Shown here one piece after another: positions 10,678-64,000 of a stretch of DNA of 64,000 bases; position 1 is the stretch's first letter; each line of letters starts with the position of its first letter. Made by a program: the position numbers and the translations under genes. Source of the DNA: a virus (Duplodnaviria > Caudoviricetes); the IMG/VR virus record IMGVR_UViG_3300044477_000030, positions 12,659 through 76,658 of that record. One strand, given 5' to 3'. The notes below the pieces were generated by a model. That model was not told the DNA's origin. It worked only from the letters and a program-made list of their open reading frames with translations, and made no database searches.

Positions 10678-12430
10678 GAGTTACCGTAATCCTGGAGACA
10701 TCGAAGGAAAGGAAATGATTCGCGAGAGTATCCAGAACCGTAGTCACATAATCACCTGGATATGTGGGAGCCGGAGTTGTGGCGTCCGTGACCGCAGCAT
10801 AAATAAGTGCGTTCTGAATACCAGGAACGGTGTAGATTGGAGTGCAAAGACGTTGAGGGATAAGATCTTTTCCTGGAGTAAAGTTGACCAGCGACCATTC
10901 AACGATTGCGGCCTTAATTTGTTCATCACCGTCTTCAGGAAAGATTTCTTCATCATAGAGACTGATGTTAATATGCAGCCAGACATAATCTGTGTCTGGA
11001 CGGCTGAACTTGATCTCGTGTTGATAGCCTTCAGAATCAACGACATAGGTTCCAGTGACGGTTCCGTAAATGGTGATGCCCGCTGGAGCAGCGTACCAGA
11101 TCGCATCAGCAATATCCTGTTCATCTCCGCCTTCCGCAATAACCTGAAGAGAGTGGGGTGGCATGGAATCCACAGTTCCGCTTGTACGATTGGACACTAC
11201 GATGCAGGAGATCACACCATTTACTGTGTTCAGGATATGCTGGCGGATTGCGTCTTCGGTGGCTTTGCCCACGGCATAGAACTGCGCACGGCGAAGACGG
11301 AATTCGGCATCCGTTTCAGCTTCGCGACCCGTGGCTCCGGCTGCGGGATTCTCCACCTCTGACCAACCGGACACGGGGGTTGTGATTGTATCGAGCGAGA
11401 ACGCAGGAACAGGGAAGGAACCGTACTCGGTGCAGTTGAATGTACCGGCGGACGCATACATAGAATCGGTGAGGTTCGTGATCGAGGCCAATGTGAAATT
11501 CGACCCGATGTTGTAAACACGGATCTTGTCATCGCCTTCCACATAATAAGCTTCGTCAATGTCCTCGGAGGAGATCTTGGCATCCAGCGCAGCAGAGATC
11601 CCGGCGACCACATCTTCCATGCCCATAGGAGCATAGGTATAATTGGCAACCGCTGGGGTTCCCGATCCTGTGACAACCGCCGTGATCGAACTGATTGTGG
11701 TTGCACCAGTGAGCGTGATCGTGAGATCGTTGCCAGAAACAGAATAAGAACAGTTGTAGCCCAATGCGGTCATCGTGGTGTCGATCTTGGCTCCCCACAA
11801 TGCCATCGTGTTCGCATGGGATGTGGTATAAGCGACACCTGGGATGTTGGTTCCATTTACCACGGAAGTAACGGTCTGGCCACTTGCAATAGGGCCGGAA
11901 AGATGGAATGTGGCGCTATGGGTTGCAGGATATGCGTAGGAGATCGTTTGTCCATCGAGAACAAACGAATAGGTCTTTGTGGTCGTCGGAGTGGCGATGG
12001 TGAATTCCACACCGCGAGGAGAAGAGGAGCTGATTATGACTTCGGAGGAAAGAGCGAAGGTCTTCTGCGCTGTGGACTGCGATGCCTGGGAGTTGACCGG
12101 AATGACCGTGGAGGGAACTCCCCAGAGCAAGGTGTCTGGAGCCTGGGATTTGGCTCGGTCAATTCGGGTCAATCCAACTTCGGAATACAAATCGTCCTGT
12201 GCCGCGCCGGACACCTGGTTTGGATTGCGGGTCGTGTAGTTGTCCTCAAGAAGATTCCAGAAATCAAGACGTGCGTTGGCTTCGATGCCAATGATCTGTC
12301 CAAAAGGACTCTCATGGGAAACGTCAATGTCCGCACCGAATGCGGTGCGGTATTCCTGTCGAACCTCTTCAAGAAGAACTTCGATCGTCTTCTTGACAAA
12401 ACCATTGGGAGTCACACCATAAGCAGTCAT
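10670..12430 (-). CDS. Baseplate J-like protein with an inserted decoration-type domain
   Basis: MTAYGVTPNGFVKK, GREAETDAEFRLRR, PPHSLQVIAEGG motifs. Confidence 0.85.
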   Translation of the reverse strand: MTAYGVTPNGFVKKTIEVLLEEVRQEYRTAFGADIDVSHESPFGQIIGIEANARLDFWNLLEDNYTTRNPNQVSGAAQDDLYSEVGLTRIDRAKSQAPDTLLWGVPSTVIPVNSQASQSTAQKTFALSSEVIISSSSPRGVEFTIATPTTTKTYSFVLDGQTISYAYPATHSATFHLSGPIASGQTVTSVVNGTNIPGVAYTTSHANTMALWGAKIDTTMTALGYNCSYSVSGNDLTITLTGATTISSITAVVTGSGTPAVANYTYAPMGMEDVVAGISAALDAKISSEDIDEAYYVEGDDKIRVYNIGSNFTLASITNLTDSMYASAGTFNCTEYGSFPVPAFSLDTITTPVSGWSEVENPAAGATGREAETDAEFRLRRAQFYAVGKATEDAIRQHILNTVNGVISCIVVSNRTSGTVDSMPPHSLQVIAEGGDEQDIADAIWYAAPAGITIYGTVTGTYVVDSEGYQHEIKFSRPDTDYVWLHINISLYDEEIFPEDGDEQIKAAIVEWSLVNFTPGKDLIPQRLCTPIYTVPGIQNALIYAAVTDATTPAPTYPGDYVTTVLDTLANHFLSFDVSRITVTHV

Positions 12431-36860: not shown

Positions 36861-37160
36861 TTGCCAAGTGCTATATATGGGCCTCTATATATCCCCACAA
36901 AAATGCGTTGTCCAACTTTGCTCTTGTGTGGGCAAATATTTCTTACACTAGGATTTTAGGCAAAAGTTTAATAACTTGAGATTCTTGATCTCAAATAAAA
37001 GCTCAAATCTACTATCATTTGGAATAATGGTGTTTAAAGCTCAAAATCCTCATTTAGAAAATGTATGTCATTCGTCGGAAAAAAAGCGGAACTTTTCGTT
37101 CCATCTAATTTCTAAAGTTATTAAAAGAACATTAAAAAAAACTAAAAAGTTGGCTAAATT

Positions 37161-37315
37161 TGCGCAGAATAGCCGAAAAAATTATCGTAACTTTTTGTTT
37201 CATCAAATAACTAAAAGTTCTCCACTTTATAGGAAATTTCCTCAAATAGTTTTGTTTTCTGCGCAGAATAGCCGAAAAAATTATCGTAACTTTTTGTTCC
37301 ATCAAATAACTAAAA
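37161..37315. repeat. 56-bp direct repeat x2 (period 99 bp, 1 mismatch)
   Basis: TGCGCAGAATAGCCGAAAAAATTATCGTAACTTTTTGTTYCATCAAATAACTAAAA at 37161-37216 and 37260-37315. Confidence 0.95.
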
Positions 37316-37525
37316 ACTGGACTATTCTACAATAGTCCTTTTCGGCATGGAATTTGATTATACTCTTTTAGTCATACCTTGGATTTAAGCTAAAGAAGCT
37401 AAGGCACTATTCTCATTTGGTATAGTGCTATTTAGCTCAAATTGCTCAAATCCATGGTCAAAGTTCTCAAGTTCCTATAAATACTAAAGTTGGTTTGGCG
37501 TCACGGGGCCAAGTGCAGCTAACCC

Positions 37526-44175: not shown

Positions 44176-44375
44176 TCATCCATCCTGGTTGAGCAAAAGC
44201 GTTGGAGGCATACCGAATTCGGACATGGCGATGATCTTACTGAACATCGCATCCCGCTGCCGACATTTATCTTCAGCTTCGTGCATGGTCGGAATAGAGT
44301 GCTGATGAATTTCCAGTGTTCTAAGTTCACGCTCCCAATCGAAATATGTAATCAGAAAATGTCTCATGCCTACAT
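44176..44375 (-). CDS. Small hypothetical protein, probably leaderless
   Basis: AATTG-TATTAT six nt upstream of the ATG. Confidence 0.55.
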
Positions 44376-44393
44376 AATACAATTCCAGCCCAT

Positions 44394-44433
44394 AAAAAAG
44401 CTAAAGGCTATACCCCAAGATGGAATACAGCCT
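44394..44433 (-). terminator. Rho-independent terminator closing the ORF-free structured unit
   Basis: AGGCTGTATTCC-ATCTT-GGGGTATAGCCT (3 G-U pairs on the minus strand) then TTAGCTTTTTT. Confidence 0.75.
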
Positions 44434-44486
44434 CTATCAACACAAATGTCTAAATAATCGCAATATCTATCAACACAAATGTCTAA
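44433..44486. repeat. 21-bp direct repeat TCTATCAACACAAATGTCTAA x2 (period 33)
   Basis: 44433-44453 and 44466-44486. Confidence 0.95.
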
Positions 44487-45150
44487 TCAATTAACATATT
44501 ATCACCAAATTCTATCTCTTTAACAATCAGAATCAGTAAGTCTTGAAAACCAAGACATCTATACCCTGGCTTAACAGCCTTAATACATTCCGAGATCGGC
44601 AGGCTTCGCCTGGCTCTCGGTCGGGACTCCGACAGGCTTCGCCTGCTCTCTGTCCCGATTGTAGGTTTTCTTGGTTTCTTTTGTCTGGGAGCCTGGTGCC
44701 TGTATTGGCTTTAGCCCTTCTGGGATAGGGGAGTGCTGGAGGTCTGGACTCCAGAGGATAGAGCTTACCTTACCTATCTGAAAAACAACAAGGTAAAACT
44801 TGCCTGTTTCCAGCTAGGTAAAGGTTGCACTTCTGTACAAAGGGTCGGCTTTTCGGCCTATCGTCCTTCGGACTTCGCTCGATCCAAGTCTGCCCACGGG
44901 TCAGCCGGTATGGGAATTTTCGCCTGGTATCGCCTTTGGGGGCCAAAGCCCCCCTGACGGTCGCTCCTACTGGAGCTATCCTATTCGACCATGCTCTGCC
45001 TCGAAAGCAGTCTCCGCCAGTCTTTAGCCAGGCAAGTGCGCGAAGGCACCCATCGTCCCGACCACCCAAGGCGTCCTAGTCTTGCTGCTGGCAAGTTGCA
45101 CCCCCATAAGAGATGCCGACCTTGGGCTCCTGTTCCTATATGGAACCGGC

Positions 45151-45171
45151 TTTGTATTACTATAATACAAA
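45151..45171. promoter_or_regulatory. Palindrome TTTGTATTA-CTA-TAATACAAA: back-to-back copies of the phage promoter motif
   Basis: Perfect 9-bp inverted repeat at the strand-switch point. Confidence 0.65.
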
Positions 45172-45334
45172 TTTCTTAGACCTTTTTGTGAGATTTGTAT
45201 AAAAAAGTTGAAATTTCTATACTTGTCTCGGGTGTCCATACAGTGTAAATAAAAATTTCATTCCAATTTGGAGTGGTTTTTTTTCATTTCGGTATAAAAA
45301 AGTTGTATTATATGGGAAAAAGGACGGTATCCAA

Positions 45335-46114
45335 ATGAAGAAAGCACTATTTCTAAGAACTTGCGACAAAGACGGAAAAGCACACGGTGGTTTTCAATGG
45401 CCTTTAAAGGCCGGTGAAACTGTAACCGCTCCAGATTGGGAACCGACAAAAGAATGCGGTAAGGGCTTACATGGTTTACTCAATGGCCAAGGCTTTTCGG
45501 GACATTTGAGTTCCAAATTGGATGCATTGTGGTTTGTTGTTGAATCAGATTTGGACAAAGCCATTGACTTGAACGGAAAGCACAAATTTCAGACTTGTAA
45601 AGTGGAATTTGTTGGCTCAAAAGAAAAGGCCGTTCAATACATGGTTGACCATGGATGCAGCGGGGTTCACTTTTCCACCTTGACCGGCGGTTATGGTTCC
45701 ACCTTGACCGGCGGTTATGGTTCCACCTTGACCGGCGGTGATTGGTGCACCTTGACTGGTGGCAATCGTTCCACCTTGACCGGCGGTGATTGGTGCACCT
45801 TGACTGGTGGCAATCGTTCCACCTTGACCGGCGGTGATTGGTGCACCTTGACCGGAGGTGATCATTCCACCTTGGCCGGAGGCGATCATTCCACCTTGAC
45901 CGGCGGTGATTGGTGCACCTTGACCGGAGGTGATCATTCCACCTTGACTGGTGGCAATCGTTCCACCTTGACCGGCGGTGATGGTTCCACCTTGAGTATT
46001 TCATATTGGGATGGAAACAGAAATCGTATTATGATTGGTTACATTGGTGAAAACGGTTTGGAACCAAATGTTGCCTATAAACTCAACGAAAAGCATGAAT
46101 TTATTAAGGCTTAA
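45335..46114 (+). CDS. Repeat protein: conserved N-terminal domain plus 13 octapeptide TLTGGxxx repeats (ice-nucleation-protein-like beta-solenoid)
   Basis: GFQWP...APDW...CGKGLHG N-domain; GGYGSTLT units resemble the INP AGYGSTxT octapeptide. Confidence 0.8.
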   Translation: MKKALFLRTCDKDGKAHGGFQWPLKAGETVTAPDWEPTKECGKGLHGLLNGQGFSGHLSSKLDALWFVVESDLDKAIDLNGKHKFQTCKVEFVGSKEKAVQYMVDHGCSGVHFSTLTGGYGSTLTGGYGSTLTGGDWCTLTGGNRSTLTGGDWCTLTGGNRSTLTGGDWCTLTGGDHSTLAGGDHSTLTGGDWCTLTGGDHSTLTGGNRSTLTGGDGSTLSISYWDGNRNRIMIGYIGENGLEPNVAYKLNEKHEFIKA

Positions 46115-63281: not shown

Positions 63282-63308
63282 GAGAGGGGCGCAAGCCTCT
63301 CTTTTTTT
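63282..63308 (+). terminator. Rho-independent terminator; its T-tract overlaps the next promoter motif
   Basis: GAGAGG...CCTCTC followed by T7-GTATAAT. Confidence 0.75.
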
Positions 63309-63335
63309 GTATAATAGGAGAAAAGGAGAATCGTC

Positions 63336-64000
63336 ATGGCTTTATTTCTAAGAACTTGCGACAAAGACGGAAAGGCATACGGAGGATTCCAATGGCCTTT
63401 GAGGGCTGGTGAAACTGTAACCTCCCCCGATTGGAAACCAACAAATCAATGCGGTAAAGGTTTACATGGTTTGCTGAATGGTCAAGGCAATTCAGACTAT
63501 TTAAATCACAAATCGGATGCTTTGTGGTATGTGGTTGAATCCGATTTGAGCAAAGCCATTGATTTGAGTGGAAAACACAAATTCCAGAGTTGTAAAGTAA
63601 AATTTGTGGGTTCCAAAGAGAAAGCCACACAATATATGGTTGACCATGGATGCAGCGGGGTTCACTTTTCCACCTTGACCGGAGGTGATCATTCCACCTT
63701 GACCGGAGGTGATCATTCCACCTTGACCGGAGGTGATCATTCCACCTTGACCGGAGGTTATCGTTCCATCTTGACCGGCGGTGGTTGGTGCACCTTGACT
63801 GGTGGCAATCGTTCCACCTTGACCGGCGGTGATGGTTCCACCTTGACCGGCGGTTATTGTTCCACCTTGACCGGCGGTGATGGTTCCACCTTGAGTATTT
63901 CATATTGGGATGGAAACAGAAATCGTATTATGATTGGTTACATTGGTGAAAACGGTTTGGAACCAAATGTTGCCTATAAACTCAACGAAAAGCATGAATT
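63336..64000 (+). CDS. Second copy of the octapeptide (TLTGGxxx) repeat protein (partial; 9 repeats)
   Basis: AAGGAG RBS, MALFLRTCDKDGKAYGGFQWP...; last ~135 nt identical to the 3' end of 45335-46114; stop lies outside the window. Confidence 0.85.
   Translation, partial: MALFLRTCDKDGKAYGGFQWPLRAGETVTSPDWKPTNQCGKGLHGLLNGQGNSDYLNHKSDALWYVVESDLSKAIDLSGKHKFQSCKVKFVGSKEKATQYMVDHGCSGVHFSTLTGGDHSTLTGGDHSTLTGGDHSTLTGGYRSILTGGGWCTLTGGNRSTLTGGDGSTLTGGYCSTLTGGDGSTLSISYWDGNRNRIMIGYIGENGLEPNVAYKLNEKHE

What the first reader, a model, noticed from the sequence alone, without database searches (positions are those of the whole stretch)
44394..45150. Candidate novel ~750-nt structured non-coding RNA with its own promoter and terminator
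At the divergent strand switch, a minus-strand unit runs from the promoter motif AAATTTG-TATTAT (45174-45162) to an intrinsic terminator (44433-44394), after which a new promoter starts the next gene. No ORF inside looks like a real protein. The minus strand folds by eye into dense nested helices: GTTCC-atata-GGAAC; GCCCAAGG/CCTTGGGT enclosing GCATCTCT-tat-GGGGGTGC (several G-U pairs, which would be A-C mismatches on the plus strand) and CTTGC-cagca-GCAAG; GTGC-cttcgc-GCAC; GGTCG/CGACC enclosing GCTCC-agta-GGAGC; GGGGGC-tttg-GCCCCC; GTCC-gaa-GGAC; CTG-GAAA-CAG (GNRA loop); doubly nested TTACCT/AGGTAA; CTGGAG/CTCCAG; and twin 3' stem-loops. I could not recognise tRNA, tmRNA, RNase P or group I/II intron hallmarks. 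Size and phage context recall large bacterial/phage ncRNAs (ROOL, GOLLD, OLE classes), but no assignment can be made from the sequence alone. It may be a new large RNA.
Basis: partly seen in the sequence, partly recalled or inferred. Interest (0 to 1): 0.85.

Follow-up and report, generated by a model that had tools for sequence, protein, structure and literature searches.

The report
Orphan non-coding RNA unit in phage
A soil-type phage carries a roughly 760-base stretch with its own promoter and terminator but no gene for a protein; it is probably a hairpin-rich non-coding RNA, but it has no relatives anywhere we could search, so its folded shape and role remain unproven.

Summary
Window 45170-44394 (minus strand) is a promoter-to-terminator unit with no credible ORF, at the only divergence point of a 76.7-kb DTR phage. 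Its promoter, TTGTATTAT, has 14 exact copies in the window. The other 13 sit 6-32 nt before an ORF; this one does not. The terminator has G-U pairs that work only on the minus strand. The 5' 560 nt are GC-rich (55.8%, against 29-41% in other non-coding parts). They hold 13 perfect short hairpins against 3.7 expected.

Evidence for an ornate RNA fold is only moderate:
- Core MFE z is -3.2 to -3.8 on the minus strand and -1.8 to -2.1 on the plus strand.
- GC-corrected folding energy is ordinary for this genome.
- Positional entropy does not differ from shuffles.

Nothing matched in Rfam, ARAGORN, phage or plasmid records, IMG/VR k-mer scans or the closest relatives' loci. Covariation therefore cannot be tested.

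One 20-nt hairpin is identical to the core of REP-like intergenic elements of Acidobacteriaceae and other phyla.

The main rival is an origin-linked region: the genome-wide GC-skew minimum is at 45182, and an AT-rich tail carries two 26-nt direct repeats.

Another first-stage reader noted this same stretch on this genome. The scan has not reported it on other DNA.

The parts
45151..45174 (-). Promoter of the unit. TTGTATTAT lies at 45170-45162, preceded by AAAT. The sequence 45171-45151 is a perfect 9+3+9 palindrome (TTTGTATTA-TAG-TAATACAAA). The TSS is inferred at about 45155.
   Evidence: The same 9-mer has 14 exact copies in the window, and 13 of them lie 6-32 nt upstream of an ORF. The TSS is inferred from the 6-7 nt spacing seen at the apparently leaderless genes; it was not measured.
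44595..45155 (-). GC-rich (55.8%), ORF-free, hairpin-dense core of the transcript.
   Evidence: GC is at the 97th percentile of genome windows. There are 13 perfect hairpins against 3.7 expected. MFE z is -3.2 to -3.8. Coding score is low.
44688..45130 (-). Predicted long-range closing helix GGAGCC/GGCUCC (45130-45125 with 44693-44688). It encloses two sub-domains at 45072-44892 and 44885-44756.
   Evidence: Single-sequence MFE and pair probabilities: closing helix p=0.95, the 15-bp interrupted stem of sub-domain I p=0.86-0.93. This is a prediction only, with no covariation.
44861..44880 (-). 20-nt segment GAGCGAAGUCCGAAGGACGA, containing a GUCC-GAA-GGAC hairpin. It is identical to the core of bacterial REP-like intergenic elements.
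   Evidence: Exact matches occur in 60 metagenome contigs and 28 genome contigs. The genome contigs are mostly Edaphobacter/Acidobacteriaceae, with others from Bacteroidales, Patescibacteria, Gammaproteobacteria and Phycisphaeraceae. There are none in IMG/VR. Similarity stops at 20-26 nt.
44546..44678 (-). Predicted 3' domain closed by a 10-bp stem. It contains the twin CAGGC-GAA-GCCUG hairpins (44645-44633 and 44612-44600), 33 nt apart, each inside a longer stem.
   Evidence: (repeat D3).
44433..44491 (.). Two 26-nt direct repeats (44433-44458 and 44466-44491, spaced 33 bp) inside an AT-rich segment (44394-44594 is 33% GC). They are candidate protein-binding sites, either operators for the next promoter or iteron-like.
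   Evidence: (unique to this locus, 0 expected by chance).
44394..44436 (-). Intrinsic terminator: 16-bp stem with 4 G-U pairs, 3-nt loop, then GCUUUUUU.
   Evidence: p=0.96.
44176..44382 (-). Next transcription unit. The promoter TTGTATTAT is at 44382-44374. The ATG at 44367 lies 6 nt after the motif, so the 63-aa gene is probably leaderless.
45258..45334 (+). Plus-strand terminator-like hairpin with T-run (45258-45285), then the divergent promoter TTGTATTAT (45303-45311) of the DUF7666 gene (45335-46114).

Best explanation
This is a stand-alone non-coding RNA gene of the phage.

The polymerase that uses the phage's common aatTTTGTATWAT promoters starts leftward at about 45155. It stops at the intrinsic terminator at 44436-44394, giving an RNA of about 760 nt. 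A weaker hairpin with a U-rich stretch near 44530 could give a form of about 620 nt.

The first roughly 560 nt are GC-rich and fold into three hairpin-rich domains. The last roughly 160 nt are AT-rich.

Shown from sequence: the promoter class, the terminator, the absence of coding capacity, and the hairpin excess.

Inferred: the RNA itself is the product and acts through its hairpins. The likeliest mode is as a scaffold or decoy for proteins that bind C-GAA-G type hairpins. One such hairpin is letter-for-letter the core of bacterial REP-like elements. The RNA would be made from the genome's divergence point along with the early and replication genes.

No target and no partner have been identified.
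For: - Promoter: 13 of 14 exact promoter copies precede ORFs, and this is the only copy without one.
- Terminator: its G-U pairs work only on the minus strand.
- Non-coding: stops in all frames; no family hits; lowest-5% coding score; no homologue of the longest ORF in 1.84e9 proteins.
- Composition: the core is GC-rich in a genome whose other non-coding DNA is 29-41% GC. This is typical of structural RNA genes (background knowledge).
- Structure: hairpin excess P=0.004. The minus strand always folds better relative to shuffles than the plus strand: -6.9 vs -3.0, -3.2 vs -1.8 and -3.8 vs -2.1.
- The 20-mer shared with REP-like elements keeps its hairpin through compensatory GCCC/GGGC variants in Edaphobacter.
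Against: - No homologue was found, so there is no covariation.
- The closest relative by SNF2 helicase (46% identity) has no such gap in the 5.8 kb upstream of SNF2 that its contig covers.
- GC-corrected MFE is ordinary, at -1.5 sd.
- Positional entropy and ensemble diversity do not differ from shuffles.
- In the core, perfect hairpins are strand-symmetric, so they could act at the DNA level.
- No expression data exist.
- The decoy/scaffold mechanism is pure inference. A CsrA-type GGA sponge was tested and is not supported.
Confidence: 0.5

Rival explanations
1. The region is, or belongs to, the phage origin of replication. The hairpins and direct repeats would act on DNA. The transcript would serve to open or prime the origin, as with T4 oriF/oriG R-loops, the T7 primary origin, or ColE1 RNA II, rather than as a free RNA.
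For: - The global minimum of cumulative GC skew over the whole 76,658-bp genome falls at window 45182, inside the promoter region.
- This is the single point from which the two gene arms diverge.
- An AT-rich 200-bp tail carries two unique 26-bp direct repeats spaced 33 bp, about three helical turns.
- Perfect hairpins are equally good on both strands.
- Primase, SNF2, DnaB-like helicase, clamp, PolB and a UvsX-like recombinase lie within about 17 kb, the first three within about 6.5 kb.
- A promoter-to-AT-rich distance of about 560 nt recalls ColE1 RNA II (my own knowledge, not tested).
Against: - There are only two repeats, and no recognisable initiator gene is adjacent.
- A strong intrinsic terminator ends the transcript just past the AT-rich part, which a primer transcript would not need.
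- The GC-skew minimum coincides with the strand switch, so it may partly reflect transcription.
- The T4-type arrangement has its unwinding element directly after the promoter; here it is 560 nt away.
- The region is not conserved in the nearest relative's available sequence.
Confidence: 0.27
2. The region is a transcribed but functionless spacer, or the decayed remnant of a gene or mobile element acquired from a GC-richer bacterium. The hairpins would be inherited REP-like debris.
For: - GC is about 8 points above the genome mean, with a 20-nt identity to bacterial REP-like elements.
- The sequence is an orphan.
- The folding signal is moderate only.
Against: - Phage genomes of this density rarely keep about 760 nt of useless DNA under a full-strength promoter and dedicated terminator.
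- No six-frame protein remnant was seen.
- Similarity to the REP-like elements stops at 20-26 nt.
Confidence: 0.13
3. It is a diverged member of an already described RNA family (ROOL, GOLLD, OLE, group I/II intron, RNase P, tmRNA or similar) that the models missed.
For: Its size and phage setting resemble ROOL (about 580 nt, my own knowledge) and GOLLD (over 800 nt). Both are phage or prophage RNAs (PMC12286853).
Against: - cmscan with permissive filters at E<=10 on 1.2 kb gave only miRNA/snoRNA-type noise at 15-21 bits.
- Nothing reached gathering score in the whole window.
- There are no tRNA or tmRNA genes in the window, whereas ROOL and GOLLD usually sit near tRNA islands (PMC12286853).
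Confidence: 0.04
4. It encodes one or more small proteins, for example the 27-aa ORF starting at the AUG at 45107, or it is a long leader regulating the downstream operon.
For: Short ORFs exist. The unit is directly upstream of a same-strand operon.
Against: - There is no Shine-Dalgarno sequence at a proper distance.
- Coding score is in the lowest 5%.
- The downstream operon has its own promoter after the terminator.
Confidence: 0.06

Closest known systems
ROOL and GOLLD (large ornate RNAs of phages and prophages)
   Same: Phage-encoded, several hundred nucleotides, non-coding, rich in helices, function unknown (PMC12286853).
   Different: No match to either Rfam model even at E<=10. It is not next to tRNA genes; there are none in the window. 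There is no family and hence no covariation. Fold quality is only moderately above background. Multimer or cage formation is untestable here.
Origin transcripts: ColE1 RNA II, T4 oriF/oriG R-loop RNAs, T7 primary-origin transcripts
   Same: A promoter-driven non-coding transcript running into an AT-rich segment near replication genes. It lies at the GC-skew minimum.
   Different: It ends at a strong intrinsic terminator. There is no sequence similarity and no antisense regulator or RNase H site can be inferred. The comparison rests on my background knowledge, not on a test.
REP-like intergenic hairpin elements of Acidobacteriaceae and other bacteria (unnamed; no Rfam family)
   Same: Twenty identical nucleotides containing the GUCC-GAA-GGAC hairpin and flanking GAA/GA purines.
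   Different: The bacterial elements are about 120 nt, multi-copy and intergenic, with their own covarying upstream hairpins. Nothing outside the 20-26 nt is shared. In the phage RNA the flanking GAGC is predicted to pair elsewhere.
Short candidate structured RNAs of IMG/VR phages (Fremin et al. 2023, PMC10690425)
   Same: Non-coding elements of uncultivated phage genomes.
   Different: Those are 29-151 nt and are defined by homologous clusters with covariation. This unit is about 760 nt and has no homologue.

Membership tests
ROOL RNA (Rfam) | Significant match to the family covariance model | tested here: not met
   No hit at gathering score or at E<=10 with permissive filters on 44200-45400.
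GOLLD RNA (Rfam) | Significant match to the family covariance model, whose 3' half is conserved | tested here: not met
   no hit.
ROOL/GOLLD | Usual location beside tRNA islands in phages or prophages (PMC12286853) | tested here: not met
   ARAGORN finds no tRNA in the 64-kb window. Rfam finds none either.
Any conserved structured RNA class | Homologues showing compensatory base-pair changes | tested here: inconclusive
   No homologue was found in any of these searches:
- phage records and plasmids;
- IMG/VR k-mer and pattern scans;
- one metagenome and one genome 20-mer scan, which gave only an unrelated short element;
- loci of the nearest relatives;
- 301 Acidobacteriaceae genomes.
Collections could be scanned only by exact patterns, so divergent homologues may exist.
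tRNA / tmRNA / RNase P / group I and II introns / OLE / HEARO | Match to ARAGORN or Rfam models | tested here: not met
Iteron-type or R-loop-type replication origin | AT-rich unwinding segment next to repeated protein-binding sites | tested here: inconclusive
   An AT-rich tail (33% GC) and two 26-bp direct repeats are present. There are only two copies, and they could equally be operators of the next promoter.
Iteron-type or R-loop-type replication origin | Strand-compositional switch (GC-skew extremum) at the site | tested here: met
   The global cumulative GC-skew minimum is at window 45182. This is confounded with the switch of gene orientation.
Iteron-type or R-loop-type replication origin | Replication actually initiates here | not testable with these tools
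   Needs marker-frequency analysis or 2D gels.
CsrA/RsmA-sponge RNAs (CsrB/RsmZ type) | Many GGA motifs, mostly in hairpin loops | tested here: not met
   13 GGA against 12.5 expected, mostly inside stems.
Retron / DRT-type ncRNA or Y RNA | Adjacent reverse transcriptase, or Ro60/TROVE partner | tested here: not met
   No RVT_1 and no TROVE anywhere in the 76.7-kb genome.

The most novel reading that the evidence does not exclude
The unit is the first seen member of a new class of large, self-folding phage RNA, comparable in scale to ROOL or GOLLD. It would be expressed from the genome's divergence point. It would carry a hairpin module borrowed from, or mimicking, bacterial REP-like elements, through which it captures a host nucleic-acid-binding factor.
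Probability: 0.25. Interest if true: 0.75.

Novelty: new variant of a known kind. Interest (0 to 1): 0.45.

Why it matters
As far as I know, only two families of very large phage-encoded non-coding RNAs have been described, ROOL and GOLLD. Both form RNA-only cages whose function is unknown (PMC12286853). A third, unrelated large phage RNA would widen that small set. This one is driven by a defined promoter at the hub of the genome and shares a hairpin with host-type repeat elements. It would also give a concrete handle, the shared 20-nt hairpin, for finding a binding partner.

If the region is instead the replication origin, it would be a useful landmark for a phage lineage with no cultured relatives.

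Either way the claim currently rests on one sequence, so its value is as a well-defined candidate for RNA-seq and probing, not as an established discovery.

Tried and rejected
1. Known RNA families. Rfam at gathering score on the whole window, and at E<=10 on the locus, gave only noise. ARAGORN found nothing.
2. Coding capacity. Six-frame reading, Pfam, PHROGs, a codon-usage scan and an HMMER search of the 99-aa ORF against 1.84e9 proteins were all negative. Alternative stop-codon reassignment is unlikely, because all three stops end long ORFs in this genome.
3. Homologues through neighbouring genes.
   - The DUF7666 neighbour is widespread but not syntenic.
   - The 355-aa neighbour is an ORFan, and the Atlas gives no usable model for it.
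   - SNF2 relatives at 30-46% identity (L006-L012) carry no similar sequence.
4. Homologues through DNA. blastn against phages and plasmids found nothing.
   - Exact 19-20-mers in IMG/VR gave one chance terminator hit, L005.
   - The twin-hairpin pattern hit only coding tandem repeats.
   - The direct-repeat pattern gave one chance hit.
5. The 20-mer that hit 88 bacterial or metagenome contigs turned out to be a short REP-like element. It is not a homologue of the RNA.
6. CsrA-sponge idea: GGA is not enriched.
7. Antisense targets in the phage genome: nothing beyond chance-level 15-16-mers.
8. Partner enzymes: no reverse transcriptase and no Ro60 in the genome.
9. Ensemble well-definedness as extra evidence for a fold: not different from shuffles.
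10. Literature search for the 20-mer and its variants: no paper.

Full report
CONTEXT

The window is bases 12659-76658 of a 76,658-bp IMG/VR virus record with 127-bp direct terminal repeats. It is a tailed phage encoding:
- terminase, portal, protease, major head protein, tape measure and baseplate;
- its own PolB, clamp-like factor, primase, DnaB-like helicase, SNF2 helicase and UvsX-like recombinase.

No cultured phage is closer than about 32% amino-acid identity for portal, polymerase or SNF2. Genes to the left of the candidate run mostly on the minus strand and genes to the right on the plus strand. The candidate therefore sits at the single divergence point.

THE OBSERVATION

The promoter motif is real and is a class. 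TTGTATWAT with up to one mismatch occurs 45 times against 19.4 expected, and 0 of 100 shuffles reach that. There are 14 exact copies, almost all preceded by AAWTT. Thirteen of them are followed within 6-32 nt by an ORF of 63-300 aa on the same strand. The only exception is the copy at 45170-45162, which heads the candidate.

Five of the 13 have the start codon 6-7 nt after the motif, which suggests leaderless mRNAs. By the same spacing the candidate's transcript would start near 45155.

The terminator at 44436-44402 has 16 pairs, four of them G-U, followed by a U-run. It is a terminator only on the minus strand. Directly after it another copy of the promoter (44382-44374) starts a 63-aa gene at 44367. 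The candidate is thus bracketed as its own unit of about 760 nt.

NOT CODING

- All six frames carry stops; the longest ORF is 99 aa with a TTG start and an arginine-rich, low-complexity product.
- None of the internal ORFs hits Pfam or PHROGs.
- A codon-usage score trained on 32 long ORFs of the phage puts nearly all 300-nt windows between 44200 and 45500 in the lowest 5%.
- HMMER of the 99-aa ORF against 1.84 billion representative proteins gave two repetitive hits at E of about 3e-4 to 7e-4 and nothing else. This also means no homologous region elsewhere has been mis-called as this ORF.

HOW STRUCTURED IS IT?

For the whole 767 nt the tool gives -279.7 kcal/mol, z = -6.9 on the minus strand and z = -3.0 on the plus strand, with 20 shuffles each. 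Much of that difference comes from the terminator and the AT-rich tail. The tail alone gives -51.4 against -21.8 kcal/mol.

For the 561-nt GC-rich core (44595-45155):
- The two strands fold to the same energy (-213 and -215 kcal/mol).
- z is -3.2 to -3.8 on the minus strand and -1.8 to -2.1 on the plus strand.
- Twelve 280-nt control windows of the phage, both strands, give z = -0.9 +/- 1.0 with a minimum of -2.7. The candidate's halves give -1.8 and -3.2.
- Regressing MFE on GC over 454 windows puts the core at only -1.5 sd.
- Positional entropy and ensemble diversity do not differ from shuffles.
- Local perfect hairpins (at least 5 bp, loop 3-8) are clearly enriched: 13 against 3.7 +/- 2.3 (P=0.004), in the top 2% of genome windows. 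Being perfect palindromes, they are the same on both strands.
- The core is 55.8% GC, the 97th percentile, whereas the phage's other non-coding stretches are 29-41%.

Together these results show a hairpin-dense, compositionally odd, non-coding transcript. They are suggestive of a structural RNA but do not prove it.

The single-sequence fold has three parts. A 6-bp long-range helix (45130-45125 with 44693-44688) encloses two multi-helix sub-domains. A 3' domain is closed by a 10-bp stem and holds the twin CAGGC-GAA-GCCUG hairpins.

SEARCH FOR RELATIVES

Rfam finds nothing at gathering score in the window, and only 15-21-bit noise at E of 3-9 in the locus. ARAGORN finds nothing. blastn in distant mode finds nothing in 50,697 phage records or 72,556 plasmids.

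Anchoring on neighbouring genes failed:
- The DUF7666 neighbour is a promiscuous protein with about 50% relatives in Pseudomonas, Cupriavidus and others, in unrelated contexts.
- The 355-aa neighbour has no homologue at all.
- The best SNF2 relative (46%; L006/L007) is syntenic downstream, but its 5.8 kb upstream are all plus-strand genes with no gap. Relatives at 30-36% carry nothing similar either.

Exact-pattern scans of IMG/VR with four different parts of the unit returned only chance or unrelated hits.

AN UNEXPECTED HIT

One 20-mer from sub-domain II, GAGCGAAGTCCGAAGGACGA (44880-44861), matched 60 metagenome contigs and 28 genome contigs exactly. It matched no IMG/VR contig.

The matches are short intergenic elements:
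- The main family is multi-copy in Edaphobacter and other Acidobacteriaceae. Edaphobacter aggregans has 15 copies within 2 mismatches, including compensatory GCCC/GGGC variants of the hairpin.
- A palindromic second family occurs in Patescibacteria and a gammaproteobacterial MAG.
- Others occur in Bacteroidales and Phycisphaeraceae.

An alignment of 48 copies of the main family shows two upstream hairpins with many compensatory changes and an invariant 3' part of about 45 nt. Rfam has no match for it. Similarity to the phage unit stops after 20-26 nt. A blastn search of 301 Acidobacteriaceae genomes found no homologue of the RNA.

So these elements are not relatives of the candidate. They show that one of its hairpins is a widely conserved module, which hints at a shared binding factor or at acquisition from a host. 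I could find no paper mentioning the motif.

THE MAIN RIVAL

The cumulative GC skew of the whole genome has its global minimum at window 45182, inside the candidate's promoter region. The 3' 200 nt of the unit are 33% GC and hold two unique 26-bp direct repeats 33 bp apart. The hairpins are strand-symmetric, and the primase, SNF2 and DnaB-like genes lie within a few kb on either side. An origin of replication whose opening or priming depends on this transcript would fit.

Against it:
- There are only two repeats. A partial third copy overlaps the start of the next gene, so they may be operators of that promoter.
- No initiator gene is recognisable.
- A strong terminator closes the transcript.
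- The skew minimum coincides with the strand switch.

The two readings are not exclusive.

OTHER IDEAS TESTED AND DROPPED

- A CsrA-type sponge: GGA is not enriched.
- An antisense regulator of phage genes: no complementarity beyond chance.
- A retron, DRT or Y-RNA type partner RNA: no reverse transcriptase or Ro60 in the genome.

VERDICT

It is a genuine orphan non-coding transcription unit and most likely a hairpin-rich RNA gene (about 0.5). An origin-linked function is the main alternative (about 0.27).

That it founds a new class of large ornate RNA remains possible (about 0.25) but cannot be shown without relatives or experiments.

A different first-stage reader independently flagged the same stretch as 'large ncRNA or structured origin'. 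That is the same DNA, not independent evidence.

Noticed in passing
L027-L114 (e.g. L076:305-439:+, L087:6793-6927:+); alignment A1: An intergenic element of about 120 nt, multi-copy in Edaphobacter/Acidobacteriaceae and common in soil metagenomes. It has two upstream hairpins with many compensatory changes and an invariant 3' part: CUGCCGAAGGCCGGAGCGAAGUCCGAAGGACGAAGCGAC. It has no Rfam match and may be an undescribed REP-like element or small RNA.
   Followed up: partly
L089, L092, L101, L046, L050, L055, L060, L068, L073: A second, palindromic element family (TGTCATTCTG-[same 20-mer]-AGCGATAGAATCTA ... TAGATTCTATC ...). It is nearly identical in a Patescibacteria MAG, a gammaproteobacterial MAG and several metagenome contigs. 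Bacteroidales carry a third variant (GTCATTTC-[20-mer]-AGTCGAGAAATC).
   Followed up: no
L010:11653-14006 (JGI contig Ga0180007_10000363, 79.9 kb): A phage-like contig with an SNF2 helicase related to this phage's (33-34% identity). Beside it lies a 720-nt gap followed by a TROVE/Ro60 gene. The gap contains a 147-nt tRNA-model hit (12089-12235). This looks like a YrlA-type Y RNA with its Ro60 partner on a phage.
   Followed up: partly
window 2952, 8432, 12802, 22662, 30912, 30991, 44382, 45303, 48866, 50121, 52968, 57661, 63307: The promoter class aatTTTGTATWAT drives both virion and replication genes. At five sites the ATG begins 6-7 nt after the motif, which implies leaderless mRNAs.
   Followed up: partly
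window 45151-45290 (+): The candidate's promoter lies in a perfect 21-bp palindrome, so a near-copy of the motif (TTGTATTAC, 45152-45160) faces rightward. A plus-strand terminator-like hairpin with a T-run lies at 45258-45285, before the DUF7666 promoter. A small plus-strand RNA of about 75-120 nt, or an operator site, may be present (fold z = -2.0).
   Followed up: partly
window 45182 (genome 57840): The global minimum of cumulative GC skew of the whole genome is here. The maximum is at genome position 37552, although genes on both sides of that point are on the minus strand, so skew is not set by gene orientation alone.
   Followed up: partly
window 36961-37520: This AT-rich stretch (32% GC) has the best GC-corrected folding energy in the window on both strands (-3.6 and -2.7 sd). 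It lies in the island of small genes that other readers noted for (CGATTGA)n arrays.
   Followed up: no
window 63307-64000 (+): A second DUF7666-type gene has the same promoter and nearly the same first codons (…CTATTTCTAAGAACTTGCGACAAAGA…) as the gene at 45335-46114.
   Followed up: no
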